This document shows, in pieces, positions 5,227 through 35,734 of a stretch of 64,000 nt of DNA (the first letter of the stretch is position 1; each line of letters begins with the position of its first letter). This DNA is from Candidatus Omnitrophota bacterium. Its GTDB lineage: Bacteria > Omnitrophota > Gorgyraeia > 1-14-0-20-64-10. The stretch spans positions 4,401 to 68,400 of the forward strand of contig JAHFFE010000007.1 of NCBI GenBank assembly GCA_023248155.1, in the 5' to 3' direction. Both the position numbers and the translations under genes were made by a program. The notes below the pieces were generated by a model. That model was not told the origin of the DNA, did not search any database, and saw nothing but the letters and a program-made list of their open reading frames with translations.

Positions 5227-8200
5227 ATGAGAATATTTCAGCGGGAAAGATATCGAACCATAATTGCCTTCATTACAATCCTTTCTATTTCCTTTACCCA
5301 AGCTTTGCCTGCCTGGGCTCTGCGCCCTGGGATTGAAGGCCGCTCCCAAGGTGGTCTTGAAGAAAGTCTCCGCGGCGGTACAGCACTTTCAGCTTCTTCT
5401 TCCACTGCTTTACAGGCTGTTTTTTCCGCGGTCGGTCAGATTGAAGATCAGGAGGGCCAACTTCCTGCCACCACGCGGGAGATTGTCATCTCTCTGCTCG
5501 ATCAATTAGAGCAAACCGATCCCACGATTGCCGCTAAGGTGGGCAACCGGGCAGCTGTTCTGTCCCAGATGGACGAACTATTATCCAAAGCTCCAAATGA
5601 AACCTGTCTGACCTGCGGAACGCACGCCGTTTCCAATGTCGCTTTTTCCAGCGCTGAGCGGGCAAAGCCGGAAGGATTACAGTCGGATCGTTTTAACGAT
5701 ACCGAGGTGTTAACTGCCATTTTGATTGTCCTCGATCTGATCAACAGCGGCCGGGTTTTATCGCTATCCGAATCGGATGGGCATCAGGTTCTGGCCAATT
5801 CCATGCTTTCGCTGCGTCAGGCGCTGAATATGCTTGAGGATCGGTTGCCCTCTCAAGACCGGAAGTTATGGACGGGGGCTGAGATTAAACAGGCGGATAT
5901 GGAGAGGCTGCTGAAGGACGGCTATCAGGTTGTCGCGCATCTCGATGGGGATCACTTCGTGCAGGTTACCCGCGTTGAAGGCGGGCGAGTCTGGTACAGC
6001 GAGCCTCGTACTGCGCAGTTTGACGCTGAAAGCCAGCTTTCGATTCGTGATTTTGGCAAACGCTGGGGAAGAGGCGTTGTCTTAACCAACGGGCGAATTC
6101 CTTCATCCAGAACCACATTGGCTGATTCCGCGTTATTAAATTTGCAGGGCTGCTGCGGCATCAACACTGTTTTTGGACAGAATGGCGGAGTTCGTTCCTT
6201 GCTGGACGCGCTGCTTCGTTTGAAATACCGGGCTCCAGACAATACCGGCATCGCCGTCATGACGGAAAATGGGATACAGGTGGTCCGGGTGGGCAAGGAT
6301 GTGCAGGGACATGGAGACGGGGCTCCGGATACGATGGTGGCATTACTTTACAATAATCCGATTTATCCGGAGGCGGTTCCGCTGGCGGTGGAGTGGGGCA
6401 AGAAAAATAGGGCGGGCCAACAGTTCCATACCGAATTAGAGAAAGCAGTAAAGGAAGGAATAGATGATTTTAGAGAGGCGTTAAAATTGTCCAATGCGCC
6501 GCGAAAAGAGACTCTCTTGAAATCGGCCGCCGGGCATTTTGCCCGAGCTGAACAGTATAAAGAACAGCTGACGGTGATGGCTGTTCAACAGGTGCGTGAT
6601 ACCGGGAAAAAACTGCTGGACGATGAGGGTTTGCCGGATCGGCGCGCTGAATTAAAGGGAGATGCATCTACGCTGCGGAACTTGTTTAGTACGGGCATAG
6701 ACGCTGTTACCGTTCATATCGGCCAGGTTGGTGGTATTTGGGCCGGTGATCAATTTTTAATTCGCCATGATAATTTGCGGCAGTTAGTTGAGAAGATCTC
6801 CGCCGCGTTTGGCCTTAACGAAGAGTTTGTCCGCCTCTTTTTGCGCGTGGAGTTATCCAATGTGACCACCGAGCGGTTTGGAGAGAATTCAGCTCAGGCG
6901 GGCGCGGTTTTGGAAGTATTTGACCGATTGTCTTATTCTGCTGTTTTAGGGACACTGACGAATGACCAGCAGGCGGAATGGGATCAGAAAGTGATGAAAT
7001 ATTTGCTGGGGCGCTGGCTCAAAGTTCCGTCTGATTTTAATGTCGACGCAGTACGGCATGTTTTTCGAGCGCAGGCTTCTTTGCTTGGAATGATAAGCCC
7101 TCGCGATGAAAACCCCAGTCTGCATCCTGAATTTCTAAGTGAACTGGCAAAAGAATTTGATCGGCGCATGCCTTCCAGGAAGGGCCAGTTTATGGCCTAC
7201 TGGAAACGTGAACGCGATCTGAATCAGCCGGGGCATGCGTTTGCCGCGCTAAATGAGGTTTTTCATAAATGGGCGTACCAATACAAGGTTGACCTGTGGG
7301 ATGCGAATTCAAAGAGCTATAAACAGGTTCAGTTGCTGGATCAACAGCAGTACAGGGTGCTTGCCGGAACAGGACAGGCTTCCGCCGCCACGGTTCGATT
7401 AATTGGAGAATTGGTGGTTGGCCATGGCCGCTGGGCCATGACCGGAGATCCCAGCCGCTGGAATGCCCATCCGCATGAGAGCAGGGACATGGTTCTGGTT
7501 CATAACGGTACGATTAACGGAATTACGAATGCCACGCTGAAAACCGAGCATAATACCAATGGATTGGCGGCTGCTTACCATGAGAATGGCAACCTGGAAG
7601 GTCCTGAAATTTTAACGGATACGCGGATTATCGTTACGCATTGGCAGTATTTGCAGGATAAAGCGGCCGCGGATCTCGAGTCAGGCCGCATGGGAGAGGA
7701 TTTGATCTATGCCGATGAATCGGACGAGGGAACGGCGCTTGGAACGCGGCTCGAAAAGAAAGGCGAAGGCGACGATGCTGTTACCGGATCAAAAACAACC
7801 GGCCGCGTGCGGGAATGGAACGCCATTGTTCGGAATTTAAGGTCGTCGGGCCGTCAGCATATTTCCGAGAATGAAGTTGCCGTTCGTTTGGCGATGACGG
7901 AAATGGCGGAGGGGTCCGAGATCGGCGTCAGCGCCAACAGTTTGCATGACCCCTTTGTTACTTACGTTGTCAGCCATGACCGGCCGGTGGATATTGTGAT
8001 TCATGAAGGCAAAGTATTGGTGACTTCCGACATGGCGGCCGGCATTGCGTTGTTTCCGGCAGCCGATGTTTCGAGAGCGGCTCAGGAATTATCTAGAATG
8101 CACCGCCGGCTCCAGAGCGAGCTGGAGGATCTCCGCCAGAGGCGGGATGAGAATGACCTTACCCCCGAAGAATATGTGGTCGAGGTCAAGCAGGCGTTTG

Positions 8201-11200
8201 CCGCTTACAAAAAATCAGCCAACCCCATCAAAGAAAAATTCAAGATCGATGTCTATCATTTGAAAGAGTTGAACAAATTCGCCGCTATTCGCAGGGTAGT
8301 CAACAGCGCGGGTGAAATTGAATTAAGCGTTGATATTTCGCATTTGGACGGAACACCGCTGACCGAAAAAGAATGGAATAAAGAGGCAAAATTTGAAAAA
8401 GCCAAAGTAGATCCGGATGTCGGTGTTAAGGGCGGGTACGCCACCTTTATTGAAAAACACGTGGATGAAATCCCGTCGATTTTGTTGGATGACGCCACCT
8501 CGTACATTGAAGTTGACGACGGTCGTCCCGCGCGCGTTCACCTTCCGGATATTAAGACCGATAAACTGACCGGCCGGTTCGGTCCCAAGCTTGAGCGTCT
8601 GCGCCGGGTTTTCTTGATTGGTGTCGGTTCTTCGTGGCGCGACGCCAAAATTGTCGAACAGATGTTTGGCGATTTGCTGCAGGGGGTGGAACTGGTGCAG
8701 ATTTCCGTTCAGGATCCGGTGGAAATTCAGAACCTTGGGATTAAACTGAACCCGGAAACTGATCTGGCGATCGGCATGAGCTGGTCCGGATCAACGGCAT
8801 CGATGGTCAAGCTGTTCAACCGTCTTTCGAGCGGAGAAGACCAGGGCCAGGATGTTCCGTTGATCGCCGTGACCGGTAAGACTTCATCGGATATGGCCAG
8901 CGTTGCCAAGAGAAGCGCGGGGTATGTGGATGTGCAGTCCGGGCCGGAATCATCGGTAGCAACCACGAAAGGATTTGAATCGGTCCTTTACTGCCTCTGT
9001 TTGCTGGGCGTGCAGTTAAGCCAGATGCAGGGCAATGACAGTTTAGTATCGGCCCGCACCCAGTATGTTCAGGAATTATGGGATTTGGTTGACCAACACA
9101 TGGATGCATTGGTGCGGGAACCCGGAAAATCTTCCGGACAAAAAGAACGGTCCACCGCTAAAGTTGAAAATCCCCAGGAACGTTCGAAAGTTCAAAAAGT
9201 GGCCGATGCCTGGCATAGCCGGCAGAAAGTGCTCGTCATTGGAAGCCGCGCCAATCCGGTTTATGTCGAAGGGGAACTTAAGGCGGAAGAAATTGCCTGG
9301 ACGGTCGGCAAGGCGGCGGATATCCGTGATGACAGCTGGCGGTCTTTGCTGGAAAACAGCGCCGATCCCCATGTGACCGAATCGGAGCGAGTCGCCACCA
9401 TTTTTAACATGACGGATCCGGGCACGTTGGATCAGTTTATAAAGGCCATTCGTGAAGTGACGGATCAGGGTATCCAGGTGGTGGTCCAGACATTTCAAAA
9501 AGACAATTCCCATTACGCTGAACTGCAGCGGATGGAACAAGAAGGAAGAATCGCCCTGTTTGAAGTTCCGCGGGTTCGCACGACGCTGCAGGCGTTGGTC
9601 GACGCGATTTTCTTTTTTCAATTTTCAATTGCGTTTGCCCGTTCGCACGGGTTAACAGATCCGCAGATCGATAACCCGAGAAACCTCGCGAAATCAGTCA
9701 CTGTCAGCGGCGCTCGCTCATTGGAAGAGCTGGTCCGGAACTCGGCGACCCGCGTGGTGAAGGTGGACGATATTACTGGGCGGCTGGATGCTTTGCAGCG
9801 CATCTACTCTGTCTATCGGAGCGGTTTAGCCGCGCGATGGGCGGAGCTGCGCTCCGCTCGTCAGCAGGCCGGCGCCCGCCTGTCCGTATTGTTGAATGGG
9901 CTTGTCCGGGAATGGTTTGGAAAACTGGCCAAGCCGAATGAACCGCAATCTCTCTGGCCGGAGGCATCTCAGCGTGATCGCGCTGAACGGTTGCTTGCCC
10001 GGTTTAAACAAGCGGCCAATGCCGATAATCCGACGGCTAAGGTATTGATTGTAACCGACGAAGAAGCCACCCAATACGCCGGCGAAGCGGCTGCCGGCGT
10101 CTATGGTTCCCGCGAGGTGGTTGTTTCAGGCGAACATAAAGATCTCTATGATGCCGATAAAGGCATTAAAATTCGCGCCGGAAAATGGTATTACCGTGCT
10201 TCGTATGACGTTGTTGCCGAGAATTACACGCTGAAGTTTGACGCGAAGCTGAATCCTTACGCGAATCCAGGCGAGCAGCCGGCGGATGCCGGTCCCATCG
10301 TGATTGTCAAAGGACAACAGCAGGTTTCTCTCAACGGAAAACAGTACCGCGTGGATCAGGGCTCGTTTCTCAAGGATCCCAAGGAAAAAGACAAGCTGGT
10401 TTCCGGGCTTCAGATGCGGGCTGAACAGCCTGACCTATTGCTGGCCGGCGTCGAAAATATCCGGGTTGTTCGGGCAACGGATCCCAATGTGGATCAGATG
10501 GTTGATCAGGATACGGTGGTGGTGCTGGTTTCGCGCGCGCGAAACAGGGGATCGGACAATAATAAGGACACGCTCCTTACAAAGCCCGATACCAGGAAAC
10601 AACTTCCTATTCCTTCGAATGCCCAATCCGAACAGACTATGCGCGCGTTGGCGGATCGTTTGGCAAAAAAAGCGATCCCTCTGGTGACGATTGCCGATCG
10701 TGATTCTCTCTTGGAGGATCCTTCATTGGACGAAGTTCGGGTCACGCACTTTTCGCTGGGGAGTGATTTTACTTCATCAAGCGTTTATCCGTCGACTTAT
10801 GTGGCATTGCTGGCGGCGGGTGTCCGGATGGGAGATATCTTGGGGCGTGATGTCCAGCCGGTGGCCCGCTCTCTGTTCGCGGTGCCTGGCATGGTGTCGA
10901 ATGTTCTGGGTTCAGAGCAGCTTCAGAAGCATCTGGAACAGGTTTTGTATCGAGTTCGCGGGTATAAAAAGGTGCATATTATCGGCGGCGGCCAATCGTA
11001 CGCCGATGCTAAGGAATTAGCCCGGGTTCTTTCAACGCTGGGTATTTTTGCTGAAGCCCAGTTGAATGACTCTGCCTGGCATGGGCCGTTGGCCGCGGCG
11101 GATCCTAACCGCAGAAAATACGGAGAACCGGGATCGGATGCCTACAAATATAAATATGGCGTCAATGACGGTTACGATACCGATGGCGATACATTGGTTG

Positions 11201-14200: not shown

Positions 14201-14382
14201 GGCTGTTGGAACAGTATCCGGCTGTTACGTCCGATGCAATTCAGGATTTCGGAATAACGAAACCGGTTTCTCAAACCGTGGTACAGATTTTTGAAATTCT
14301 GTTTGGCATCACGCCGGATGCCGCGCTTCAGTTCCAATTAGAACAGTTAGTTGCCCAGGCCACGCTGGCCTTCCAGGCATAA
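5227..14382 (+). CDS. Giant exported protein 2 (3051 aa) with an embedded GlmS-like module (class II glutamine amidotransferase + 2 SIS domains)
   Basis: An uninterrupted 9.2 kb ORF with a GGAGAGAGA SD. The N-terminus is TM/signal plus AWALRPG..GLEE. Internal matches to E. coli GlmS by eye: [23 protein letters not shown] (MCGIVG..LRRLEYRGYDSAGLAV), [29 protein letters not shown] ([29 protein letters not shown]), [11 protein letters not shown] (ETDTEVIAHL), SIS motifs [14 protein letters not shown] and [11 protein letters not shown] (VASTKAFTTQL), and C-terminal [10 protein letters not shown], identical to the GlmS C-terminus. Confidence 0.85.
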   Translation: [3051 protein letters not shown]

Positions 14383-14386
14383 AAAA

Positions 14387-29200: not shown

Positions 29201-31983
29201 CTGCTTTCCGCGGTAATGTAACGGTGGGTGGCCGGCCGCTGGTACTGCGTTTCAACTCTATTTCAGATCAGGTGATCTCCGCGTCGGCAGTGGTGGGTCA
29301 GCCTGATTCCCGAGTCGCTTCTCTTGGGCAAGGCGGTGAAAATATTCCGCTGGCTGAAGCGCTTACTCAATTAACAGGACCAGATAACGCATCCGTTGCA
29401 ATCACTGCCGCTGATTGGCAGCAAATTCAGCAATCGGCGCAGAATGTTGCCGATGTGCTCAGAACACCGGTGGCCGGCATCGATATGGTACTTGAAACAA
29501 CACCGGATGGTCATATTCGCGGTGTTTTGATTGAAGCCAATGCCCGTCCCGGCACACTGATCTTGGGCGAGACGGTCCAGTTCCCAGCATCGGATGCCGT
29601 TGAGGATGCATCCATTGAAAGCAGTCCGGCCGCCCCGGTCGGCCCGGCATTTTGGACTGCTCTCGGAATTTCCCAAACAACCACGCGACCAACGCCCTCT
29701 TCAATCACTACTTTGTCACAATGGATCGATCTGTTGCGGAGTGGTCGAACCGATTGGATGACACCGCACTATACGGGAGATTTTGAAGCCCATCGGGTGA
29801 TTTTGGATGAATGGATCAGCCAAGCGCTGAAACGGGAAGTCCCGGGAACATCCGGCACTCCGTTGTTTGATCCGAATCGTCCGATCGCTATAACGCGAAC
29901 TCCCGGCCGGTTTCTGTTTCCGGTGACAGGCCGGCATCTGGATTATTTGGGCGGACAGGGCGGATCGATCGGATCACCTACCCAACAGGAAACGGTGCTC
30001 ATTGCGCAGGAAGTGGAAGGGTTAAATGGACAGATTGAAATTTATCAGATAGTTGCCCCTGATCCGTCTGTTGCCGAAGTCTATCCCAATAATGGATTGG
30101 GCGCCAGAACGATTGATCTAAATAGCCCCTTTGTAAATCCAGACCGGCCGATTCGGACGCTGGCCGATTGGGATACCTGGGCCAAAACGGTGACTGATCA
30201 GAGAAGAGTCGCCCGCGCCCCGGATACCAAAGTTAATTACGCGGACGATTTGGCCGCGGCAATCATCGCGTTTGCCCGCACCGAGCTCGGAGATCCTTCA
30301 GGTAAAATCCGCGCTTATCTGGACCGGATTGCCAGTGAAGGTAAGGGTTTTCGGTTTGCGCTGGCCAGCAACCTACCGACTGGCGGCGGATTGAGTTCCT
30401 CGTCGGCGGTGGCGATTGGATTCGCGCAGACATTGGCCCAGCTGGCTGGCGTTCAGTTGACACATGATCAACTGGTTAATTTTGGTTATGCCGAACGATT
30501 TTACGCCGGTACGCAGGGTGGCTTAAAAGACCACGCCCATCTTACCGGCGATACGGGATATCTTGGGGTTGCTCCTACGCGCACCATCGCGACGATGAGT
30601 CCAATTCCAGGCGCGTCGGTGTTGTTGCTCGATTCCGGCGTTTCGCGCGATAGAGCAATAGCCCTTTCTCCCAAACTAGGCAGCAAGGGCAATGACGAAC
30701 AGAATATTAAAGGTCGTACGGCTACTGGCTATGCATTGGTCAATCTCTTGCTGAGGCATATTCATCCTGAGTTAACAGCCCGGATTGCACCCGATACGCA
30801 AAATCCGGATGGTTATCTTCGCAATCTGGTTCCCGGTAATCCGGGTGGAATGTCGGTACAGGAAGTTTACAAATTGCTGGGCGAAATTCCGGCAGAAGGA
30901 CTCACCCGTAAACAAATGTATGAATTAATGCCGGAATTTAAGTCTGATCTTGATCGTTTATTTGCCAAGGGTGAGGAGCCGCCTGAGCCGTACGCGCTGC
31001 GTGAAATGGCATTGTTTTTCTTTGCCGAAGAATCGCGCAACTGGGAAGTGGTTCGCGTGCTTAACGCTTTGAAAGCGGATGAGATTAATTCGGATCAGGC
31101 GTTTGAACGGTTGATTGAAGTCGGACGCGCCGCGCACAATGGCGACCGCGTCACCCGTTATGAAATTACGCCAGGTGATCAGGGTTCTTTGAATGTCAAC
31201 GCGATCGGTTGGGATTGGCATCTTTCCGATCCGACGCTCGATCAGTATATCGCGAACTCTGATTCCAACGAAGCCGCGCTTTGGCGCCAGGCCGGCCGGC
31301 TGGAACGATCGATTGAACCGCTCGACCGGCTGGTGGATCTGGTTGAATATTATAACCAGCAGCATGGTGGAAATTCCGATGTTGCTGTCGTGATGGGCGC
31401 CGGTTTGGGTGGGACCGTCGGCGTTTTGGCCCGTTCTGATTCTGTCGATGGATTAACGCAATTTCTGAACGAGCATTATTACCAGCCGTTAGGCTTGACC
31501 CATGGACCGGTTATCCGCGCGCAAGCGGGTAAGGGTGCCAGTGTATTGGTTTCCCCAACGGCCGGTCTTGAGGAATCGGCTACCAAGGTTGCTGTTCCTT
31601 CGGCTAGCCGGACAGTGTTCAATGGTCTTGGCGTGGTGGCCGGACCGACCACCACCGGATTGCAGTGGGGGTTGGCCATTGCGCGCAATGGTAAACAGCG
31701 CGACGGCCGGCCGGTGCCGGTAGTTTTTCTGGTCAATAACGATGAGCAGCGCGCGCAGTTGACGAAGGCCGGTTTCGGCGATTTTATTTTCACAAATGAA
31801 TCGGAAGCCATCGCGGCGATTACCGGTTATGGCGTTAAACCGGTTCTGGTTGGTGTGGGTCAATCGGTGCCTGAATCGGTATTCGTCTTGTTTGCCGAGT
31901 TATTCGGCATCGAACTTTCTAATGTGCAGGCCGATTTTTGGCAGGGCGCTTATGCTTCCGCGGCGGTCGATGTCAACGCGTAA
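20230..31983 (+). CDS. Giant exported protein 4 (3917 aa) with a UDP-glucose/GDP-mannose dehydrogenase-like catalytic motif and a C-terminal GHMP-kinase-like domain
   Basis: It starts 5 nt after the preceding stop. The N-terminus has the TM plus SYALRVQQPVGGEAASGLEE. GPTTGYCIPKDLLFKMF matches the UDPGDH catalytic-Cys motif GGSCxPKD. GFRFALASNLPTGGGLSSSSAVAIG matches the GHMP kinase PxGSGLGSSAA motif. Confidence 0.85.
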   Translation: MNLNPKKIISGLIVGTFFFSQVTPSYALRVQQPVGGEAASGLEERLISRPSQGFATRVGAVRGAVQTARRSVGAKQASVAWNLKDGQLSPIAWASGPALPNATTVVPAVLSRAEQGLKWLYGKRSSVAVVENSLRNDLLGDSVSVELRANHGMTLDFDRGDNAVRLDTTIAEELFDSTDIDQNGLSVLYGIGFFYQLQLVAGRSPREAAHLTLALYQNISDTERAALLSVLRSPQIDHGNQWARFFEEGSKPADYRGIDSLELETRLETETNTDTRTALEAVVNHRDKLVSWLLGQQLIDLPYDRTKMLEAMTAFETNVDAGRSLAFEAVKGFDRKVEQANADRVGTMIREEWLPDNMPYPTLLAGRYSRAFGNQGGLAANAVYVEANPGIRDLAQLLETEAKAEQLLAELKALESSVPARALPKFRKAEQRIEALLVQLGPGIARIRLLVSGQAAALTQYKGALQQIRENITIFYREAARVIESARDTANAAGGKGILRRLTQNVSKPFQAAQEKVSEFAAQSGRLATITNDLETAALQAPSQPAAFSVLLQRPSPTGSINFNANELVEKPEQEPALRELARLGGQNSYTSPSYDWVSEATDIIEAAPLFIYERTVVLEDGKSVTVFEVDQEGLEQTVRQMADYWALNIDKTIDSEHLALAREIVVAADPVLSGRAGQLTGQGISVEAAHRQVIYEASEKRPELLRLVGTTAAWLAAEFDRRITEVEKHTEAEWQKDHFIDRMESLRDVVVTGRSPSELLSLAQDAIGSHTAEVDRLTPLALRRRRPMPAFHLLTTQAPGLVQGFFQAVLEEEMALRNVAKAKGLDDEVRDRVKRYQQRIAELGRTVIQEFGYQPILEQKKSELPASMADDEKERQAIQRTIADHMPLQQELAKLAVLVEFAEAEGKPMDPSHPDPSQVEEIISGQTVELTAEAVRAVWQRNQLDPELANKVIALDSTQTDEAAIAQAIHQTPIYEEELQSNIRWLARQRAIDQLSRQHAELYLAEQAKSNGINPPNWYRNHTSLAQTTARREAIAAHNLQGLLMDPRYAYSNGALKETSEGRLRPTGARKRYHLIYGPSRVNLGAGERDSVEVWPQWVGVTDPLAAAHALAFYQLINFNPEVRTIMEAENLKVSENQWTAMVRAVRNAEAYFVGRLGVGDIEDLAHQFNRRNGLPGAWLKDGESYAAGPTTGYCIPKDLLFKMFVATALDGRKMTQIGVPRHLQAGVFKMMSEILAAQANFDTVTDWEAWAAQTMLSESSLRERFGAADGGKLNQLFSQYVSVTGGVTAFHLTKMLQILQMVGVPSPTLVPGKNLHDALWAQWADLKLTLAAEQVNRSLIFPMTREIPDGVAEARRLNPGVNIAAPEQASIHMFGTYKGDDVEAPPPDVRFSWTMRAFMILSGYGKEVALSLDEDGQLLARLSWDGFLPDSTDEEDIKVARFVAQKFAGKDQFGAEDFALVEKLKQDFPHHTTVGNITITVVPGVSAEDLLGFNAETKLLLGDRAAAVRELLISKGINTGQITANAVLRHEFPAEWIPLLDLDAKEQTALKEAVAGGIHPLVLQQRGPGTDFEQDLQAQDVAVFSVTHPGIVTMDPSKLRDLMQLGRPNGLQSALVAHDMVAQGRHRVWFDRDVMLWYAAARGIDAEGNPIQNWSDRDQQGRKAVYKAFGYGEDTYRPLLGTDLRQETARQERRAAELFELVRRVADSDLTTQVTAITALQQQLDELRTQLRTEAELAIKYEQAMLSFRRNKPRDQIIRGSLVALASGKPVEQFDFVDWLAVGGIYLLNGAPQARQDEVRSVFDRAGQKMASGLEENPNVALLIRPRLEPTSLSRAERKGEMFSVKATETFAEKAVARRKGLALQAARQSALQAREEGFRSIEPVNSVDGILPALNEARAALNGMTEQVANRSGNAAQIHRQSGQVMGTAVAVLNRLNQELTPGPDREEVAKKIQALSKGRELDEKAWSSFGGTYEDAGVLARFFEQAGPNRRELVAAAMELLYLTMLIDKTAEFAALPSDDVDARQLWRALSVYYAETLDDHFYEYNPWAFDPKRGSAFVDYYDDVGVLKPEHREELYGLSWAHHRAAYSYIRALVRAKTDYGKLPKEEYNALLGDVTLGATPDQDQLAVQAIGAGAPGPNELFWRAYGQYREIAVMQNDGFGVPVVFDQFDPNTPEVIDAQHRLNFAFVSPVGRTHYSRALMSAAQMGSNIFITRNAVVTEVAGSNGKVATISDAQFWLTEAQYREALIRFRGMAPSDADAQIAQDRAAGRITPLGIRVAARFTQPVVISAGVYLHHHSIEPEWIAAGYPATDKSPVVYEISYDKALYPKIYNPAADTGVNLPPEIDWMQTDTDDRPETDVKQDIAKMLRPFAETHGIIVAKGSSESGARNFRRFDFFNDNGFNEQVLSEAVDFIYEVSKGQNVTIQRAIIVTPIAWMDPSGVNDFVSRQIRDHGVPANIHRYPKDWVYSTQRIIMSAGMPKNLNDLDNPANWEASHPISLSSLQVATNVGRQGTLELLSPDLIRPEFRDQFIQGLQDAGRRSMAAMAKYARQYWHEVYLPAYRAAHDGADPPEFDATGVPYWWPRYLMLDFLAEPVFYRNGVEAVGARVVDVIPGDAARNVSARFVLQDADGNRFDGEIRGFKYWLLEPNVGIGLWPNLWKREELHERARAKADGNRPMDWNQVGVSDRVVLGNYLAAGEAFMKAKFGGDHYGPGGPRRDPPPMGPTSADISPPATAVTFVQPLVTDVTSLQRVEELKLDQDLSHPLAPVIEIQQEPASAEQLRALLPHAQTFAVVTGKRTLMNHHVYPFEVGKGTAAVNVIGVNDEWLTADGKATRLMVYNPETGRYLEFPLEQPVAINSAFIVELPQSREVERHQELTQLLASNGVRVVNQAGEAQRHMDDKAWLRHERIPEVLVPTAMVVEKSSSTGEATLGIIARGSPAGIIIQPRSGTTEGEGVAWFSAADTDGQLAHLRNLLKTGDAMVSAFRGNVTVGGRPLVLRFNSISDQVISASAVVGQPDSRVASLGQGGENIPLAEALTQLTGPDNASVAITAADWQQIQQSAQNVADVLRTPVAGIDMVLETTPDGHIRGVLIEANARPGTLILGETVQFPASDAVEDASIESSPAAPVGPAFWTALGISQTTTRPTPSSITTLSQWIDLLRSGRTDWMTPHYTGDFEAHRVILDEWISQALKREVPGTSGTPLFDPNRPIAITRTPGRFLFPVTGRHLDYLGGQGGSIGSPTQQETVLIAQEVEGLNGQIEIYQIVAPDPSVAEVYPNNGLGARTIDLNSPFVNPDRPIRTLADWDTWAKTVTDQRRVARAPDTKVNYADDLAAAIIAFARTELGDPSGKIRAYLDRIASEGKGFRFALASNLPTGGGLSSSSAVAIGFAQTLAQLAGVQLTHDQLVNFGYAERFYAGTQGGLKDHAHLTGDTGYLGVAPTRTIATMSPIPGASVLLLDSGVSRDRAIALSPKLGSKGNDEQNIKGRTATGYALVNLLLRHIHPELTARIAPDTQNPDGYLRNLVPGNPGGMSVQEVYKLLGEIPAEGLTRKQMYELMPEFKSDLDRLFAKGEEPPEPYALREMALFFFAEESRNWEVVRVLNALKADEINSDQAFERLIEVGRAAHNGDRVTRYEITPGDQGSLNVNAIGWDWHLSDPTLDQYIANSDSNEAALWRQAGRLERSIEPLDRLVDLVEYYNQQHGGNSDVAVVMGAGLGGTVGVLARSDSVDGLTQFLNEHYYQPLGLTHGPVIRAQAGKGASVLVSPTAGLEESATKVAVPSASRTVFNGLGVVAGPTTTGLQWGLAIARNGKQRDGRPVPVVFLVNNDEQRAQLTKAGFGDFIFTNESEAIAAITGYGVKPVLVGVGQSVPESVFVLFAELFGIELSNVQADFWQGAYASAAVDVNA

Positions 31984-34900
31984 TACACTTTTCCAAAAGA
32001 TCTCAGGCGCCGTTCTTATCGGCGCCTTTCTTTTTGTGAACGCGGCGCCGGGTTATGCACTGCGCGCCACTCAGCCGGTAGTGGGCTCCGGTGCCGAAGA
32101 GCTTAGACAAAAACTTTCCGTCAATAATTCCGTTCCTGCTTTTGCCGGACAGGAGGAAACGCCGCCATCGCCGATTATGGGCCATCGTTTGGTGGAGACC
32201 GGAATTCCGGGTTACCGCCGCGTTGTTTATTTTCTGCAGGACGGTTCTTCGTGGAATGGCGGTGTTGTCCGTTCTGATGTCCCTGAAAATGCGATTGCTT
32301 CGACCGCTTATCTAGCCCCGTACAGTTTTGCGGAAGGGGCAGCGGCGCGATTGGAAGATGGCGCGCAGGTGGCAGACGGATCGGCCGTTATTAATTCGGC
32401 GATTCGTTCCGGCGCGAAGTTGAATGGTTCCGTCGCGGAAAATGCGCTGGTTCATCCGGCGGCCTGGGTTTCGTATTCAGCGCTGGGTCCGGCGTTTGAT
32501 GACGACAGCTGGAGTTATTCGCTAGCGACCGAAAGAGACTCCGAGCTTTCAGTTCGCAATCATTTGGCTTTTTTTGCGCGTAATACTTACCGCGTGGAAG
32601 TCGGTTACAACAGTTCGGTGCGCGGATCGGTTTTTCAAGACAGCGCTGTCGGCCCGGACAGTGATATTTTTGGGAGCGCGTTGGTAATCAGCCGCTGGGG
32701 TGAACAGACCCGCATGGACGGCGGCGTAAAATCGTGGCTGGCGGTCGGCGCGCAGGGCCATGCCGATATTGCCGGCGTTCAGCATCGTCCTGACGGGACC
32801 GAGATTCCGGCCGCGCTGGAAATCGCCGAGGCCGCTTATCAGGGATTGCCGGCCGAACAATATCCCGGCACTCAAATTCACGAGCACCATGTCGGTTATA
32901 CAGAGGCGGTTATTACCAACAGCGTACCGTTAGTCGGTTATACCGCCGGGGAATTAACTGTTACACCTTATCTGGTTCCTCCCATAACCTTATTCGGCGA
33001 TTACACAATTTTCTCGATCTTCGCCGGTTCTCCGAATCCACAGGGAATTAAAACTGACGGCAGGCCGACGCCCGGTGTTATTACGCGCTTGACCGGCGGT
33101 CCCGGCGAACAGAGCAGTCAGCATGGCCGGATTATTTCCGACCCGCTTTCAATTCTCCCCGGATTTTCAAATGTGATCGGCCGTCTGCTGGGATTCCCGG
33201 AACTGGATAATCCATTGGCACTGCTGACCGAACCGGAAGTGACGCATCTGGGCCCTCTCTCGGCTGTCGGCGCCGATGCGCAGCTCGGTTTAAATGGTCT
33301 GGAAGGATGGGGGCAGATATTACCGGCCGAAGCGCGCGGCCAGTTAAGCCGCGGTTCCGGCATTGCGCCCTGGGTATTTTTGTATTCTCCCGAGGTTCTT
33401 TTTTCTTTGATGGGTCAGCTGGCTTCCGGTTTACCTGCGAATGATCAGTCCCGGTACGATGATTTGCCGCAGCGGTTACTGGAATCAGGACTGGCCTTAA
33501 GCCGATGGATGCTCGATCAGGAACAGGCAAAAGACGCGCAAGCCAACGCGCAGGTGATTGAACGGCTTGAGCGGTACATCGCTGGTTTTTCGGCATTGAT
33601 TGAGAGCGAGGCCTGGGCCGGAAAATGGGTGCAGGATGGGGAACTGCGTCACCCGGAACAGTGGCAACGCTATGGCGATCGGTGGGAAACCAGTTCTCTA
33701 AATCTTGCAAACATGCATCGTCAGATTCATCCATTTGCCGATTCGGTTCCGTATACGCAAGTTCCTCTTCGTTACTTGTTGGCGGTTCCCGATGGTGTCG
33801 ATCGTCCCGATTGGAGCCAGTGGACCGGCTACTATCTGAAACCCGAAGACCTTCAGACCAGTCCGCCCACACCGCTCGATCAATTAGAGCAGGTGGATGA
33901 ATCGTTAAAAGAATGGAGAATTATCGGACAGGACGCAAAATTTTATTACACGGTCGAGGGCGGCCGGATCGGCCGTGAAGTCGATTTAAAGATGATTCAT
34001 CCTTCTGCGCTGATTGGTCCCGGCACGGTGTTAATCGGAGCGGCCACTTCGGTGGGCGAAGGGACCCGCCTGCTTCGCGTCATTGCCGATAATACGGTAA
34101 TCGGCAGCGAAACCCATCTGACCGCCGTTTATTCCAGAAGCACTGTTTTTGGAAACGGGATTAAACTGACTTGGGCGAAAACGACCCGCCTGGTGAGGAT
34201 TGGAGATGGCACCGTCGGTTCCTATGTCGGCATCTCGGAAGGGAGTGTCGTTGGAAAAAATAATACCTTTGAGCCATTTGCGCTGGTGATTAATTCCACC
34301 ACGGGACCTAATAACGTGATCGGCATTTCGTTGGTGAACAGCCAGGTTCAGCCTGGTTTCATGGGACGGCATCTTTCGACGGCGGTGCATAACCTTCAGC
34401 AGCAATCGGTTCGTTTTCAAGTCAACGGAAAAAACTATGATTTGAAGGCCGCTTCCCTCAATGTGGCTGGTGGGTTGTTCGTTCAGGGCAATGATAAGAC
34501 CCCGGTTCGTTTGAGTTCGGCTTATCCGCTTTCGCTGACAACGATTGATCCGGGGAATGGACAGAAGTTCGCAGTCGGCGCTTTCAGCGTTCTTAAAAAT
34601 CAAATTCGTCTCGACGACGGGCAAATCCTGCCACTGACATTTCATGCGTTCAATCATGTGGCATCCACTGATCCGCTATTTGCCCAGCCGGGCCGGCACA
34701 ACGACTCCATCGGCGGCGCGCTGGAATTCCCGGGAATTTTTCTGCGCAATTTTATCTATCGGACGAAGAAAGGAATTTATGACGATCTGGCCGCGCAGGG
34801 ATTAACGCGCGAGCAGATTCTTGTCCATCCGCGGATGCTGCAGTCCGATTATATGATTGAGGCGACCATTGTCAGCGCGCTGGTGCAGGTAATCAATCAA

Positions 34901-35734
34901 CTGCGCGAGATCGATATGGATGCGTATGATCATTTGGTTGGAACCGGTAATGCGGCGCTGGGCCGGCTGTTAAAATTGGCGGAAGGTGATCTGTCGCAAA
35001 TTGAGCAGGGCGATCAATCTGCGCTAGGTGTTCGAACTCCCCAGCTGCAGGTACAAATTAAAATGGCTATTAGGCAGGTTCAGCAGGCATTGGATTCTTT
35101 GCCGGGAAGCCGTCCTTCCGCCGGCACCGTTTCTTCGTCGGGGCATACGGCCGCGCAGTTATTGGAAGGGGTTGCGCGGTTGTCGCAAAATCTCGATGGC
35201 CGCTGGCGGATGCGCAACCACACGTTTACTGAAGTCGAATGGCGTTACCAGGCGTACGATGCGTCCCGCCGCGCGCGCGATACCTGGGTTCCTGTCTCGA
35301 AACCCGATTCATTGCCGATTCCGCTGCCGGCCGGAGCATTGTCCGAAGGGAAATATCTTTTTATCGCCCCGAGCGTGGCTGTTCCCGAACTTTGGGCTGG
35401 TTTGGGCCGGCTGAAGCCGTCTTCCGGAGAAACAATCGGTCTGGTTATTTTTGGCCGAGATGCCGGTCATCTGGAAACTATTCGGGCAGAGATGATGGGG
35501 TATTCATTTGCGTCATCGGCGAAATTCATCGATCTATCTCAGTACAGCGACGATTTGATGCGGGCGGTTGCGGGTCAGGTGGCTGTGCTGGGCAGTAATG
35601 ATGCATTTGAATACCGGCTGATCCGAACATTCAGCGATCTCGGTGTTATTGGGAAGTTCCTCCAAATTCCGGATATTTCGTTCCGTGCCTGGGAGCGGCA
35701 AATTCAGAACGCCGGGTTCGAAGAATATGTATAA
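31970..35734 (+). CDS. Giant exported protein 5 (1254 aa from ATG 31970) with a left-handed beta-helix (hexapeptide acyltransferase-like) region
   Basis: The ATG overlaps the last 14 nt of gene 4. The N-terminus is MSTRNTLFQKISGAVLIGAFLFVNAAPGYALRATQPVVGSGAEELRQ. An LbH-like run IGPGTVLIGAATSVGEGTRLLRVIADNTVIGSETHLTAV...IGDGTVGSYVGISEGSVVGKNN is present. The upstream in-frame ATGs at 31796 and 31952 would add a non-hydrophobic extension, so 31970 is preferred. Confidence 0.8.
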   Translation: MSTRNTLFQKISGAVLIGAFLFVNAAPGYALRATQPVVGSGAEELRQKLSVNNSVPAFAGQEETPPSPIMGHRLVETGIPGYRRVVYFLQDGSSWNGGVVRSDVPENAIASTAYLAPYSFAEGAAARLEDGAQVADGSAVINSAIRSGAKLNGSVAENALVHPAAWVSYSALGPAFDDDSWSYSLATERDSELSVRNHLAFFARNTYRVEVGYNSSVRGSVFQDSAVGPDSDIFGSALVISRWGEQTRMDGGVKSWLAVGAQGHADIAGVQHRPDGTEIPAALEIAEAAYQGLPAEQYPGTQIHEHHVGYTEAVITNSVPLVGYTAGELTVTPYLVPPITLFGDYTIFSIFAGSPNPQGIKTDGRPTPGVITRLTGGPGEQSSQHGRIISDPLSILPGFSNVIGRLLGFPELDNPLALLTEPEVTHLGPLSAVGADAQLGLNGLEGWGQILPAEARGQLSRGSGIAPWVFLYSPEVLFSLMGQLASGLPANDQSRYDDLPQRLLESGLALSRWMLDQEQAKDAQANAQVIERLERYIAGFSALIESEAWAGKWVQDGELRHPEQWQRYGDRWETSSLNLANMHRQIHPFADSVPYTQVPLRYLLAVPDGVDRPDWSQWTGYYLKPEDLQTSPPTPLDQLEQVDESLKEWRIIGQDAKFYYTVEGGRIGREVDLKMIHPSALIGPGTVLIGAATSVGEGTRLLRVIADNTVIGSETHLTAVYSRSTVFGNGIKLTWAKTTRLVRIGDGTVGSYVGISEGSVVGKNNTFEPFALVINSTTGPNNVIGISLVNSQVQPGFMGRHLSTAVHNLQQQSVRFQVNGKNYDLKAASLNVAGGLFVQGNDKTPVRLSSAYPLSLTTIDPGNGQKFAVGAFSVLKNQIRLDDGQILPLTFHAFNHVASTDPLFAQPGRHNDSIGGALEFPGIFLRNFIYRTKKGIYDDLAAQGLTREQILVHPRMLQSDYMIEATIVSALVQVINQLREIDMDAYDHLVGTGNAALGRLLKLAEGDLSQIEQGDQSALGVRTPQLQVQIKMAIRQVQQALDSLPGSRPSAGTVSSSGHTAAQLLEGVARLSQNLDGRWRMRNHTFTEVEWRYQAYDASRRARDTWVPVSKPDSLPIPLPAGALSEGKYLFIAPSVAVPELWAGLGRLKPSSGETIGLVIFGRDAGHLETIRAEMMGYSFASSAKFIDLSQYSDDLMRAVAGQVAVLGSNDAFEYRLIRTFSDLGVIGKFLQIPDISFRAWERQIQNAGFEEYV

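What the first reader, a model, noticed from the sequence alone, without database searches (positions are those of the whole stretch)
5227..35734. Domain inventory across the array resembles a complete UDP-amino-sugar/uronate pathway on exported megaproteins
The domains recognised are: GlmS-like (gene 2); sugar kinase, UDPGP pyrophosphorylase and LbH (gene 3); UDP-sugar dehydrogenase-like and GHMP kinase (gene 4); LbH acyltransferase-like (gene 5, ~34010..34330). Together they cover most steps from Fru-6-P to a UDP-N-acetylhexosamine or uronic acid. A mutase was not seen. Either these are catalytically active enzymes tethered or secreted in an unusual way, or they are pseudo-enzyme modules repurposed as structural or binding units. 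Both interpretations would be new.
Basis: inference. Interest (0 to 1): 0.85.

Follow-up and report, generated by a model that had tools for sequence, protein, structure and literature searches.

The report
Exported modular amino-sugar enzyme polyproteins (Omnitrophota)
Four back-to-back giant genes of an uncultured Omnitrophota bacterium string divergent amino-sugar-activating enzymes behind secretion-type leaders, joined by a repeated "AGLEE" linker and mostly closed by a shared end domain; this is a smaller, more regular version of the enzyme-laden giant proteins recently reported for this phylum, and the linker gives a testable guess at where they are cut.

Summary
The observation largely holds. 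Window 5227-35734 is four intact co-directional ORFs of 3051, 1945, 3917 and 1254 aa.

Domain calls:
- Supported by profile searches: GlmS-like, ROK kinase, eukaryote-type UDP-HexNAc pyrophosphorylase, and a galactokinase-type GHMP kinase.
- Weak: LbH.
- Motif-level only: "UDP-sugar dehydrogenase". It failed every profile search.

Each protein starts with a Sec-type leader (AXA|LRP). Modules are separated by [AGST]G[LQAMF]EE junctions: 14 observed against 0.3 expected. Three of the four proteins end in a ~135-aa Rossmann-like domain. That domain occurs in only 69 of 1.84 billion representative proteins and is always C-terminal.

Sister genomes shuffle the same modules between genes and add the "missing" PGM/PMM mutase. 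Other family members carry FTHFS, PPDK and APH+NTP-transferase modules.

The organism is Candidatus Omnitrophota. Two preprints (2023, 2026) already describe signal-peptide-bearing multi-enzyme giant proteins with sugar-metabolism domains in this phylum, and suggest C39/S8 cleavage. The finding is therefore not categorically new.

What neither preprint mentions (term searches of both) is the leader/junction/C-terminal-domain grammar and the coherent amino-sugar toolkit.

Most likely these are exported polyproteins processed at AGLEE sites. Where the ATP-dependent enzymes act is unresolved. Verdict: new variant of a known kind, interest 0.6.

The parts
51..734 (+). Stand-alone canonical ROK kinase (cut at the window edge), with no leader. 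Shows that a conventional cytoplasmic ROK exists beside the embedded one.
   Evidence: Pfam ROK E 2.3e-31. The same ROK-GH94-g1 synteny occurs in L002.
797..3217 (+). GH94 glycoside phosphorylase (cellobiose/chitobiose-phosphorylase family). No signal peptide. Conserved upstream neighbour.
   Evidence: Pfam Glyco_hydro_94 E 8e-102 and GH94 supersandwich E 2e-65. Synteny in L002.
3446..5197 (+). g1: exported ~580-aa protein with a TIKI/TraB/erythromycin-esterase/ChaN-superfamily core plus a large helical insert. Widespread in Omnitrophota next to giant genes. Candidate processing hydrolase (inference).
5227..14382 (+). Gene 2 (3051 aa): leader, C39-like domain, GlmS-like module, extra SIS region, unannotated C-terminal half, CTD.
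5227..5319 (+). Gene 2 leader: n-region net +3, uncharged run of 21 residues, AWA|LRP.
5599..6096 (+). C39-like (papain-fold) peptidase candidate, with invariant Cys ('CxTCG') and His ('NHFV').
   Evidence: Profile of 7 family sequences against the PDB: the only hit is Peptidase C39 7n87 at E 1.3, over the His motif. No Pfam hit. Suggestive only.
6151..9705 (+). GlmS-like module. The Ntn Cys is at aa 310 ('GC|CGI'), with a ~370-aa insert in the glutaminase domain, two SIS subdomains and the C-terminal lid 'PRNLAKSVTV'.
   Evidence: TIGR01135 E 1.7e-43. Residue-level alignment to E. coli GlmS. Family-wide motif conservation.
10966..11109 (+). Second SIS-type sugar-phosphate-binding stretch in gene 2.
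   Evidence: Pfam SIS, aa 1914-1961.
13621..13632 (+). Internal junction motif A-GLEE-T in gene 2.
13975..14379 (+). CTD of gene 2: ~135-aa Rossmann-like C-terminal domain ending in ATLAFQA.
14387..20224 (+). Gene 3 (1945 aa from Met13): leader, LbH-rich conserved module, ROK, UAP, CTD.
14600..17395 (+). Conserved ~930-aa module rich in imperfect hexapeptide repeats. It sits at the C-terminal part of P0002 and P0003 in other genomes.
   Evidence: blastp 51-52% identity. No Pfam hit.
17309..18223 (+). ROK-family sugar kinase module (closest NCBIfam: N-acetylmannosamine kinase).
   Evidence: Pfam ROK E 2e-8 to 6e-8. NF003461 E 5e-9. PDB glucokinases.
18239..18250 (+). Junction motif A-GQEE-T, exactly between the ROK and UAP modules.
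18260..19801 (+). UDP-N-acetylhexosamine pyrophosphorylase (UAP1/AGX1-type) module.
   Evidence: phmmer against the PDB: 1vm8 E 2.2e-6, 1jv1 E 8.7e-6. Motifs GxGSRL, QGMxPA and PDGTGG align.
19817..20221 (+). CTD of gene 3.
20230..31983 (+). Gene 4 (3917 aa): leader, two large unannotated modules, ATP-grasp-like region, GHMP kinase, CTD.
23809..23829 (+). 'GYCIPKD' motif, the only basis for the 'UDP-sugar dehydrogenase-like' call.
   Evidence: No supporting profile hit.
25672..25683 (+). Internal junction S-GLEE-N in gene 4, conserved in the orthologue P0015.
29272..29559 (+). ATP-grasp-like stretch (weak).
   Evidence: Pfam ATPgrasp_YheCD E 0.008, below the cutoff.
29977..31554 (+). Galactokinase-type GHMP sugar-1-kinase module. 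Read by eye from the translation: 'PGRF..GRHLDYLGG', 'PTGGGLSSSSA', 'GGLKDH' and 'MGAGLGGT'.
   Evidence: GHMP_kinases_N E 2.5e-11, GHMP_kinases_C E 0.015, galactokinase NCBIfam E 1e-9. Motifs read.
31564..31575 (+). Junction A-GLEE-S between the GHMP module and the CTD.
31576..31980 (+). CTD of gene 4.
31970..35734 (+). Gene 5 (about 1254 aa from Met59 of the ORF): leader (GYA|LRA), two GxEE motifs, a large body orthologous to parts of P0057 and of the L086 3375-aa protein. It ends in '..AGFEEYV'. Its C-terminus is not detected by the CTD profile.
34025..34288 (+). Left-handed beta-helix (hexapeptide) stretch in gene 5.
   Evidence: Pfam Hexapep E 7e-4 (19.6 bits, GA 27) and LbH_EIF2B E 0.005.
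35831..37744 (+). Exported S8 subtilase with a fervidolysin-type N-prodomain. Conserved downstream neighbour and candidate processing protease.
   Evidence: Pfam Peptidase_S8 E 1e-40 and Fervidolysin_NPro-like E 9e-15. Hydrophobic N-terminus. 45% identical orthologue in the same position in L003.
37797..38252 (+). BatD-domain protein. BatD also follows the S8 protease in L003.
   Evidence: Pfam BatD E 2.8e-20. L003 gene list.

Best explanation
The array encodes a lineage-specific class of Omnitrophota modular pre-proteins built to one grammar.

Shown:
- Each protein has a Sec-type leader ending AXA|LRP.
- One to several enzyme cassettes follow, each preceded by an [A/S/T/G]-G-[L/Q/A]-E-E junction.
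- In three of the four window genes the protein ends in a ~135-aa Rossmann-like C-terminal domain.
- The cassettes in this locus are divergent amino-sugar enzymes that keep their motifs. They are a GlmS-like amidotransferase/isomerase, a ROK hexosamine kinase, a galactokinase-type anomeric kinase, and a UAP1-type UDP-HexNAc pyrophosphorylase. There are also LbH and ATP-grasp-like parts and large unannotated modules.

Inferred mechanism:
1. The proteins are exported through Sec together with g1 and the S8 protease, which also carry signal peptides.
2. They are cut at the AGLEE junctions by the embedded C39-like domain, the adjacent S8 subtilase and/or the TIKI/TraB-like g1.
3. For GlmS, self-cleavage before the Ntn Cys exposes the nucleophile.
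4. The mature products are then the same whether cassettes are encoded fused or as separate genes.
5. The released or tethered enzymes act together on hexosamines to make hexosamine phosphates and UDP-HexNAc.
6. Because they need ATP, UTP and glutamine, their site of action is most plausibly a host or prey cell, or a contact compartment, rather than an ordinary periplasm.

Shown: domain identities, motif conservation, the leader/junction/CTD grammar, rarity, and module shuffling. Inferred: export, cleavage at AGLEE, catalytic activity, and site of action.
For: - The four ORFs are intact over 3.8-11.8 kb and packed like an operon. They contain no tandem repeats.
- Domain calls are supported.
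- Most GlmS catalytic residues align with E. coli GlmS: Cys1, R26, D29, N98/G99, D123, S303, S347, S349, T352, K485, E488 and K603. The hallmark motifs recur in about a dozen or more family members.
- Leader: about 30 complete members have a positive n-region, an uncharged run of 18-24 residues, AXA|LRP, and a first GxEE at +4 to +20. No other hydrophobic span is present.
- Junction motif in the window: 14 observed, 0.30 expected, maximum 3 in 2000 shuffles, and 0 in 22 other window proteins.
- Junction motif family-wide: 180 observed against 14.7 +/- 3.7 expected.
- The motifs lie at module borders, for example ROK|UAP and GHMP|CTD.
- The N-terminal GLEE of gene 4 aligns with an internal GLEE of P0015. 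Gene fusion and fission therefore happen at these junctions.
- Modules are shuffled between genomes, and sister arrays carry the mutase.
- Protease candidates: C39-like, S8 with its own signal peptide, and g1 with a TIKI/TraB/EreA fold.
- Literature: signal-peptide-bearing multi-enzyme Omnitrophota giants and proposed C39/S8 cleavage.
- Precedent in a PVC relative for exported sugar-metabolic enzymes: PMC4829429 and PMC9251005.
Against: - No signal-peptide predictor was run and there is no experimental datum. The uncharged run of ~20 residues could equally be an uncleaved anchor.
- Kinases, ATP-grasp, GlmS and UAP have no obvious substrates outside a cytoplasm.
- No secretion system for delivery into another cell is encoded in the window.
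- Cleavage at AGLEE is inferred from conservation alone.
- g1 is far more widespread than the AGLEE/CTD family, so it is not specifically tied to AGLEE.
- The C39 assignment is statistically insignificant (E 1.3).
- GlmS carries substitutions: T76M, H77T, Q348W and E351S. His504 is probably lost. These and the large inserts could abolish activity.
- The ROK module shows no Zn-binding Cys motif (by eye).
- Gene 5 lacks a detectable CTD.
- About half of the array's residues have no annotation at all.
Confidence: 0.45

Rival explanations
1. Housekeeping metabolon. The proteins stay on the cytoplasmic side, either because the leader is an uncleaved membrane tether or because export is mispredicted. 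They are then the cell's own fused hexosamine/nucleotide-sugar pathway, with the CTD acting as an assembly or regulatory domain and AGLEE as a flexible linker.
For: - All identified modules are cytoplasm-type enzymes that need ATP, UTP or glutamine.
- A near-canonical FTHFS (610 bits) and a PPDK occur in family members.
- Nielsen & Lui consider a cytoplasmic-face reading for TM-only giants.
- Module fusion is typical of pathway enzymes.
Against: - The positive-inside rule places the bulk of the protein outside: the n-region is net +1 to +5, followed by an AXA c-region.
- The co-operonic g1 and S8 protease are also signal-peptide proteins.
- A canonical stand-alone ROK sits in the same locus.
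- glmS and glmU are present in 174-176 of 176 complete Omnitrophota genomes. This comes from other lineages, so it is only an inference for this genome.
- The embedded modules are far more divergent than housekeeping copies: GlmS scores 149 bits against a 418-bit cutoff.
- A five-residue motif conserved in linkers is not needed for flexibility.
Confidence: 0.22
2. Pseudo-enzyme scaffold. The exported modules have lost catalysis and serve as sugar-phosphate or nucleotide-sugar binding or structural units of a surface or adhesion apparatus, in line with the 'coat'/attachment view of Omnitrophota giant proteins.
For: - Divergence is extreme, with large insertions.
- Several GlmS ligand residues are substituted, and there is no ROK Zn motif.
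- Many modules are below the family cutoffs.
- WD40 propellers and large unannotated helical modules occur in the family.
- Published interpretations stress attachment and cell-wall targeting.
Against: - The nucleophile and general-base positions, and the nucleotide/phosphate loops, are the residues that are kept across 25-50% identity. These are Cys1, K485/E488/K603, GHMP motifs I-III plus the Asp, and the UAP GxGSRL/PDGxGG motifs (by eye).
- The FTHFS module is essentially canonical.
- The module set forms a coherent pathway that is retained through gene rearrangements.
Confidence: 0.18
3. Periplasmic cell-wall sugar salvage. The enzymes work in the producer's own periplasm or at its surface on amino sugars released from its own or prey peptidoglycan or chitin. 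This would link to the GH94 phosphorylase and to the OmpA/PG-binding neighbours.
For: - GH94 and ROK lie upstream.
- OmpA and PG_binding_1 neighbours follow arrays here and in L084.
- One family member has an APH+NTP-transferase pair that recalls AmgK-MurU (the resemblance is from my own knowledge).
Against: - No energy source (ATP/UTP) is known in a periplasm.
- GH94 itself has no signal peptide.
- GlmS, FTHFS and PPDK make no sense there.
Confidence: 0.1

Closest known systems
Omnitrophota giant 'multi-enzyme metabolic cluster' proteins (Nielsen & Lui 2026, bioRxiv 10.64898/2026.06.07.730766) and Archaeovorin-type giants (West-Roberts et al. 2023, bioRxiv 10.1101/2023.11.21.568195)
   Same: - Same phylum.
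- N-terminal signal peptide.
- A C39-like domain near the N-terminus and S8 peptidases nearby.
- Polypeptides tiled with many different, highly divergent cytoplasm-type enzymes, including ROK and PGM/PMM.
- Proposed post-translational cleavage.
- Function unresolved.
   Different: - The proteins here are 1.3-3.9 kaa in a tandem array, not at least 10-147 kaa.
- They have a signal peptide only, with no internal TM helices, no SecA-DEAD domain, and no T2SS/Tad flank in the window.
- They follow a strict leader / AGLEE junction / C-terminal-domain grammar. Term searches of those papers turned up no mention of it.
- The module set forms a recognisable amino-sugar activation toolkit.
Hexosamine biosynthesis and salvage enzymes: GlmS-GlmM-GlmU, and the eukaryote-type NAGK/GALK2-AGM1-UAP1 route (textbook knowledge)
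   Same: GlmS-like, ROK (NagK/NanK-like), galactokinase-type anomeric kinase and UAP1-type pyrophosphorylase modules are present. PGM/PMM is present in sister arrays. Key motifs are retained.
   Different: - None of the modules reaches an equivalog cutoff.
- There are large inserts.
- The modules are fused behind secretion-type leaders.
- No mutase and no proven acetyltransferase occur in this window.
- The pyrophosphorylase is the eukaryote/UAP type rather than GlmU.
Chlamydia trachomatis secreted glycogen-metabolism enzymes, including the PGM CT295 (PMC4829429; PMC9251005)
   Same: A PVC-superphylum bacterium exports ordinary sugar-metabolic enzymes so that a pathway runs outside the bacterial cytoplasm.
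   Different: - Export there is by type III secretion of single-domain enzymes into an inclusion lumen.
- Here there is a Sec-type leader, fused cassettes, and no T3SS evidence.
- The analogy is functional only.
Type IX secretion cargo architecture (Sec signal peptide + conserved C-terminal sorting domain; own knowledge)
   Same: An N-terminal signal peptide combined with a family-specific domain found only at the extreme C-terminus of otherwise unrelated cargo proteins.
   Different: - The CTD here is a Rossmann-like alpha/beta domain, not a beta-sandwich.
- The phylum is different.
- No T9SS genes were seen.
Polyproteins cut at short conserved junction motifs (viral 3C/NIa-type sites; double-glycine leaders cut by C39 peptidases; own knowledge)
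   Same: A short conserved motif with a small residue followed by Gly lies at every module border, and a C39-like domain is encoded in cis.
   Different: - No cleavage has been shown.
- The conserved part is on the primed side (L-E-E).
- Canonical double-glycine leaders are short N-terminal peptides without a Sec-type hydrophobic core.
TIKI/TraB/erythromycin-esterase/ChaN superfamily (for g1)
   Different: - No sequence-level match to any Pfam, NCBIfam or PDB entry.
- A ~300-residue helical insert.
- Substrate unknown.

Membership tests
GlmS (TIGR01135 equivalog) | Whole-protein score above the curated cutoff (418 bits) | tested here: not met
   149 bits, E 1.7e-43, in three stretches. GlmS-like, not an equivalog.
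GlmS (TIGR01135 equivalog) | N-terminal nucleophile Cys plus glutamine-site residues (R26, T76, H77, N98, G99, D123) | tested here: inconclusive
   Cys, R26, D29, N98, G99 and D123 align. T76 is replaced by M and H77 by T. The Cys is internal (aa 310), so it needs proteolytic exposure.
GlmS (TIGR01135 equivalog) | Two SIS subdomains with S303, S347, S349, T352, K485, E488, H504 and K603 | tested here: inconclusive
   All are present except Q348W and E351S, and an H504 equivalent that cannot be found. The lid 'PRNLAKSVTV' is conserved (part by eye).
ROK family (PF00480) | Pfam gathering score | tested here: met
   33-34 bits against a GA of 22.9, nearly full-length.
ROK family (PF00480) | Zn-binding CxCGxxGC motif of many ROK kinases | tested here: not met
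   No Cys motif in aa 975-1280 of gene 3 (read).
UDPGP / UAP1 (PF01704) | Profile match and the signature motifs L(X)2GXGTXM/L, QGMxPA and PDGNGG | tested here: inconclusive
   No Pfam hit. phmmer to AGX1/UAP1 structures gives E 2e-6 to 1e-4, with GEGSRL, QGMNPA and PDGTGG aligned.
GHMP kinases (PF00288 / PF08544), galactokinase subgroup | N-domain gathering score and motifs I-III | tested here: met
   GHMP_kinases_N 43-44 bits against a GA of 22.3. The C domain scores 16 bits, below its GA of 21. Galactokinase NCBIfam models hit at E 1e-9 but far below the equivalog cutoffs. Motifs were read.
UDP-glucose/GDP-mannose dehydrogenase (PF03721 / PF00984 / PF03720) | Profile match, N-terminal GxGxxG NAD-binding domain, catalytic Cys motif | tested here: not met
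   No Pfam hit at E<=5. A PDB profile search at E<=10 finds no dehydrogenase. Only 'GYCIPKD' and 'NPE' resemble the family.
Hexapeptide (LbH) acyltransferases (PF00132) | Gathering score and repeated [LIV]-G-x4 turns | tested here: inconclusive
   Gene 5: 19.6 bits, below the GA of 27. Gene 3: no hit. A crude periodicity test was negative. Related family members hit Hexapep at E 2e-9 and DUF4954 at E 7e-34.
Peptidase C39 | Profile match with catalytic Cys/His | tested here: inconclusive
   No Pfam hit. Family profile against the PDB: the single hit is C39 7n87 at E 1.3. Cys and His are invariant.
Omnitrophota long-protein catalogue, class 1 'multi-enzyme metabolic cluster' (Nielsen & Lui 2026) | Omnitrophota origin, length of at least 10,000 aa, many distinct Pfams with none dominating, SP or TM | tested here: not met
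   Origin is met, as are the signal peptide and mixed enzyme content. Length is 1.3-3.9 kaa, below that catalogue's threshold. Same kind, outside the catalogue definition.
T9SS cargo (type A/B CTD) | Beta-sandwich C-terminal sorting domain | tested here: not met
Tat substrates | Invariant twin-arginine in the n-region | tested here: not met
   RR is present in some family members but absent from all four window proteins.

The most novel reading that the evidence does not exclude
A small Omnitrophota lineage uses a dedicated export-and-processing code: a Sec leader ending in LRP, AGLEE cleavage junctions, and a private Rossmann-like C-terminal domain. With it, the lineage ships whole ATP-dependent metabolic pathways out of the cell as polyproteins. 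In this locus the pathway is amino-sugar activation to UDP-HexNAc; elsewhere the cargo includes FTHFS, PPDK and an AmgK/MurU-like pair. The enzymes would run inside, or at the interface with, a host or prey cell as 'metabolic effectors'. The AGLEE motif would then be the first predicted cleavage code for Omnitrophota giant proteins.
Probability: 0.25. Interest if true: 0.85.

Novelty: new variant of a known kind. Interest (0 to 1): 0.6.

Why it matters
Two preprints report that Omnitrophota put cytoplasm-type enzymes on signal-peptide-bearing giant proteins. They could not say whether, or where, these proteins are cut, or what the enzymes do together. One of them states that missing cleavage-point information blocked its analysis.

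This locus offers a compact, regular case:
- Cassettes are delimited by a statistically unmistakable AGLEE junction.
- A private C-terminal domain marks the family.
- The module set maps onto one pathway and is conserved through gene rearrangements.

That turns an open puzzle into concrete tests. The predicted neo-N- and C-termini can be sought by metaproteomics. The modules are small enough to express and assay. Three candidate proteases are named.

If the enzymes are active outside the producer, this would be an unusual way for a nanobacterial symbiont or predator to exploit another cell's metabolism.

Tried and rejected
1. UDP-sugar dehydrogenase in gene 4. Pfam at E<=5, a two-sequence profile against the PDB at E<=10, and a regex search for canonical copies in about 1 Mb of fetched Omnitrophota DNA to use as references all returned nothing. 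I kept it only as a motif resemblance.
2. T9SS-like CTD idea. Rejected on fold.
3. Tat signal. The twin-arginine is not conserved.
4. DNA tandem repeats or an assembly artefact. None found in 3000-38000.
5. ACT-like regulatory repeats that I thought I saw in the C-terminal half of gene 2. No Pfam support.
6. Simple period-6 hydrophobicity test for LbH. It was insensitive and negative even where Pfam sees Hexapep.
7. Word-indexed homology searches. These were poor for this family: 3 hits for gene 3 and 4 hits for the CTD profile. The exhaustive HMMER search was needed.
8. g1 sequence-profile search against the PDB. Nothing found. The fold search then resolved it.
The afdb50 library was unavailable.
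10. CTD profile on gene 5. No hit, so gene 5 is not counted as a CTD carrier.
11. Whether canonical glmS/glmM/glmU/ugd exist elsewhere in this genome could not be tested. Only the window is available. There are none in the window.

Full report
**Anatomy.** Window 5227-35734 holds four uninterrupted + strand ORFs (translations):
- gene 2: 5227-14382, 3051 aa
- gene 3: 14387-20224, 1945 aa, counted from Met13 of the 14351 ORF
- gene 4: 20230-31983, 3917 aa
- gene 5: 31970-35734, about 1254 aa, counted from Met59 of the 31796 ORF

The gaps between genes are 4-5 nt, and genes 4 and 5 overlap by 14 nt. A 592-codon ORF (g1, 3419/3446-5197) precedes the array by 29 nt. An S8 subtilase (35831-37744) follows it by 96 nt. 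There are no DNA tandem repeats in 3000-38000. Outside their termini the four proteins are not paralogous.

The rest of the window is ordinary housekeeping:
- a stand-alone ROK kinase and a GH94 phosphorylase upstream
- BatD, OmpA, a PLP enzyme, an ECF sigma factor, copper and zinc resistance genes, the glycine-cleavage system, an APS kinase, and GT2 glycosyltransferases downstream

No canonical glmS, glmM, glmU or ugd is in the window.

**Testing the domain calls.**
- *GlmS-like (gene 2): real.* TIGR01135 scores E 1.7e-43, but 149 bits against a 418-bit cutoff. GATase_6 scores E 1.7e-5, and SIS E 3e-9 in two stretches, with a further SIS stretch at aa 1914-1961. E. coli and human GlmS structures are also hit.
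- *ROK (gene 3): passes Pfam's gathering score*. The closest NCBIfam model is N-acetylmannosamine kinase.
- *Pyrophosphorylase (gene 3): missed by Pfam.* It matches AGX1/UAP1-type UDP-GlcNAc pyrophosphorylase structures at E 2e-6 to 1e-4. The motifs GxG(S/T)RL, QGMxPA and PDG(T/N)GG align.
- *GHMP kinase (gene 4): solid.* The N domain scores E 2.5e-11. It is of galactokinase type. By eye it keeps the galactokinase signature (PGR...G-x-H-x-D-Y-x-GG), motif II (PTGGGLSSSSA), the Asp of 'GGLKDH', and motif III.
In gene 3 it is not supported by any profile. Related family members do hit Hexapep and DUF4954.
- *'UDP-sugar dehydrogenase-like' (gene 4): fails.* No Pfam hit at E<=5 and no dehydrogenase in a PDB profile search at E<=10. 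Only 'GYCIPKD' and an upstream 'NPE' resemble the family.
- *ATP-grasp stretch (gene 4): weak*.

Roughly half of the residues remain unannotated.

**Catalytic residues.** Against E. coli GlmS, the following align: Cys1 (gene 2 aa 310), R26, D29, N98/G99 and D123 in the glutaminase domain, and S303, S347, S349, T352, K485, E488 and K603 in the isomerase domain.
- The substitutions are T76M, H77T, Q348W and E351S. I could not find an H504 equivalent.
- A ~370-aa insert splits the glutaminase domain.
- The Ntn-type Cys lies 309 residues into the protein, in 'LQGC|CGI'. If it is used, the upstream part must be removed.
- The Cys motif, 'HxRWA' and the 'PRNLAKSVTV' lid recur in about a dozen or more diverged family members. 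That argues for selection on chemistry rather than on fold alone.

**A shared grammar.** All four proteins begin with a positively charged n-region and an uncharged run of about 20 residues ending in A-x-A, followed by L-R-(P/V/A). There is no other hydrophobic span. By the positive-inside rule the bulk is outside the cytoplasmic membrane. No dedicated signal-peptide predictor was available. g1 and the S8 protease also have signal-type N-termini; GH94 does not.

Four to twenty residues after the leader, and again at module borders, lies [AGST]-G-[LQAMF]-E-E.
- In the window there are 14 copies against 0.30 expected (maximum 3 in 2000 shuffles). There are none in 22 other window proteins totalling 8621 aa.
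- Examples are '..GLVGAARKTAAGQEETITLE..' exactly between ROK and UAP, and '..SPTAGLEESATK..' between GHMP and the C-terminal domain.

Genes 2, 3 and 4 end in a homologous ~135-aa domain. The C-terminus of gene 5 is not detected by the profile, and the protein ends in 'AGFEEYV'.

**The family.** An exhaustive HMMER search with the C-terminal domain found 69 proteins in 1.84 billion representatives. The domain is always at the extreme C-terminus, on proteins of about 100 to 4868 aa.
- About 30 N-terminally complete members carry the same leader.
- G[LQAMF]EE occurs 180 times in the family against 14.7 +/- 3.7 in shuffles.
- Pfam on 21 members finds SIS (4), DUF4954 (4), GATase_6 (2), WD40 (2), a near-canonical FTHFS (E 3e-183), PPDK_N plus PEP-utilizers, an ARMT1-like phosphatase, APH plus NTP-transferase, Hexapep and ROK.

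Cargo is therefore mostly cytoplasm-type, often ATP-dependent metabolism. Amino-sugar and nucleotide-sugar modules are the most frequent.

**Comparative genomics.**
- The N-terminal ~930-aa module of gene 3 is 51-52% identical to the C-terminal parts of P0002 and P0003 from other metagenomes.
- Gene 2 has 45-48% identical orthologues in L009 and L021.
- In a sister genome the array has three proteins:
  - P0017: C39-like + GlmS/SIS + DUF4954
  - P0015: UAP-like + gene-4-like
  - a 3375-aa protein: gene-5-like + GHMP + PGM_PMM_I/II + ROK
- L003 likewise has a PGM/PMM-bearing 1407-aa protein, followed by the S8 orthologue and BatD.
- The PGM module is absent from this window.
- The N-terminal GLEE of gene 4 aligns with an internal GLEE of P0015, and the GLEE at aa 1815 is conserved. 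Fusion and fission therefore occur at these junctions.

Retention of one module set through such rearrangements is Rosetta-stone-type evidence for a common pathway. In this window, a galactokinase-type anomeric kinase plus UAP could make UDP-HexNAc without a mutase. That last point is inference from textbook salvage pathways.

**Organism and literature.** g1 relatives occur in at least 562 stretches of GTDB genomes, almost all Candidatus Omnitrophota.
- West-Roberts et al. (bioRxiv 10.1101/2023.11.21.568195) describe Omnitrophota giant proteins with N-terminal C39 domains near signal peptides, S8 peptidases, and embedded glycolytic and PGM domains predicted to be extracellular. They propose cleavage and note that cleavage points are unknown.
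- Nielsen & Lui (bioRxiv 10.64898/2026.06.07.730766) define a 'multi-enzyme metabolic cluster' class among proteins of at least 10 kaa, with a sugar-metabolism Pfam module that includes PGM and ROK. They report that 94% have a signal peptide or TM helices. They leave function open.
- They also find canonical glmS in 174 of 176 and glmU in 176 of 176 complete genomes.
- Term searches of both preprints found no mention of a linker, a cleavage motif, a shared C-terminal domain, SIS or hexosamine. No paper in the library combines Omnitrophota with 'polyprotein'.

**Accessory proteins.**
- *C39-like region.* The N-terminal region of gene 2 (aa ~125-290) has an invariant Cys and His. As a family profile it hits only Peptidase C39 in the PDB, at a non-significant E of 1.3.
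- *Caveat on g1.* It is much more widespread than the AGLEE/CTD family, and giant ORFs next to distant g1 copies rarely contain GLEE. It is therefore not specifically tied to the motif.

**Interpretation.** The best-supported model is exported modular pre-proteins, processed at AGLEE junctions, whose cassettes are still enzymes for amino-sugar activation. The anatomy is shown. Export, cleavage, activity and site of action are inferred. The main difficulty is energetic: these enzymes need ATP, UTP and glutamine. This pushes the site of action toward a partner cell, by analogy with Chlamydia's exported glycogen enzymes (PMC4829429, PMC9251005). The alternative is the rival in which the proteins stay on the cytoplasmic side. 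A pseudo-enzyme scaffold remains possible, but the pattern of conserved residues fits it less well.

**Verdict.** The pathway reading is strengthened by comparative data. The claim of outright novelty is weakened by two preprints. What looks new is the leader/AGLEE/CTD grammar, the compact array form, and the coherent toolkit. I rate it a new variant of a known kind, interest 0.6.

Noticed in passing
window 3446-5197 (g1); relatives in L004-L083: A conserved exported ~500-620-aa Omnitrophota protein with no Pfam, NCBIfam or PDB sequence match folds as a TIKI/TraB/erythromycin-esterase/ChaN-superfamily core with a ~300-residue helical insert. In several distant genomes (for example L027, L058, L060, L071, L074, L077, L083), stop-to-stop ORFs suggest it is the N-terminal part of giant proteins of more than 3800 aa.
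   Followed up: partly
window 6154-6159 (gene 2 aa 310-311, 'CG'): The GlmS-type N-terminal-nucleophile Cys is internal, in 'LQGC|CGI'. The equivalent 'G-x-C-G' is conserved in the family. This implies proteolytic or autoproteolytic exposure if the glutaminase is active.
   Followed up: partly
window 6274-7396 (gene 2 aa ~350-724): A ~370-residue insertion splits the glutaminase domain of the GlmS-like module between the Cys1/R26 segment and the 'HGRWA' segment. Its function is unknown.
   Followed up: no
window 31970-31983: Gene 5 most plausibly starts at an internal Met of the 31796 ORF. That start overlaps the end of gene 4 by 14 nt. The first 58 codons of the mechanical ORF precede the signal-type segment and are unlikely to be translated.
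   Followed up: partly
window 35714-35734 (C-terminus of gene 5): Gene 5 ends '..QNAGFEEYV*'. A junction-type GxEE motif sits three residues from the stop, as if the gene had been truncated at a cassette border. Its orthologous module in L086 continues into GHMP, PGM, ROK and CTD modules.
   Followed up: partly
window 35831-38992; L003 17601-20266; L084 9615-10899: Arrays are followed by conserved envelope-type neighbours. Here and in L003 these are the S8 subtilase with a fervidolysin prodomain and BatD (L003 also has an MBL-fold protein). Here and in L084 an OmpA-family protein follows; L084 also has a PG_binding_1 protein.
   Followed up: partly
P0016 (L084 2924-9397): A family member carries an essentially canonical formate-tetrahydrofolate ligase (Pfam FTHFS E 3e-183) behind the same leader, separated from ROK-like and other modules by AGLEE junctions. 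This is the clearest case of a strictly cytoplasm-type ATP-dependent enzyme on a signal-peptide protein.
   Followed up: partly
P0025 (aa 455-1024): An NTP-transferase plus APH-type kinase pair on a CTD-family protein recalls the AmgK-MurU anomeric-kinase/uridylyltransferase cell-wall-sugar salvage pair. The resemblance is from memory and was not tested.
   Followed up: no
window 40937-51884: A metal-resistance block: ECF sigma, Metal_resist, an HMA-like protein, an outer-membrane efflux protein, a multicopper oxidase with HMBD, a P-type ATPase with HMBD, a cation-diffusion facilitator, DsbD_TM and a thioredoxin-like protein. It is unrelated to the finding.
   Followed up: no
window 60246-62207 (- strand): The only sizeable minus-strand gene encodes an NTP_transf_5 plus sulfotransferase fusion. 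It lies in a lower-GC stretch (0.46-0.50 against about 0.54) with neighbouring GT2 and PMT_2 genes, possibly a surface-glycan island.
   Followed up: no
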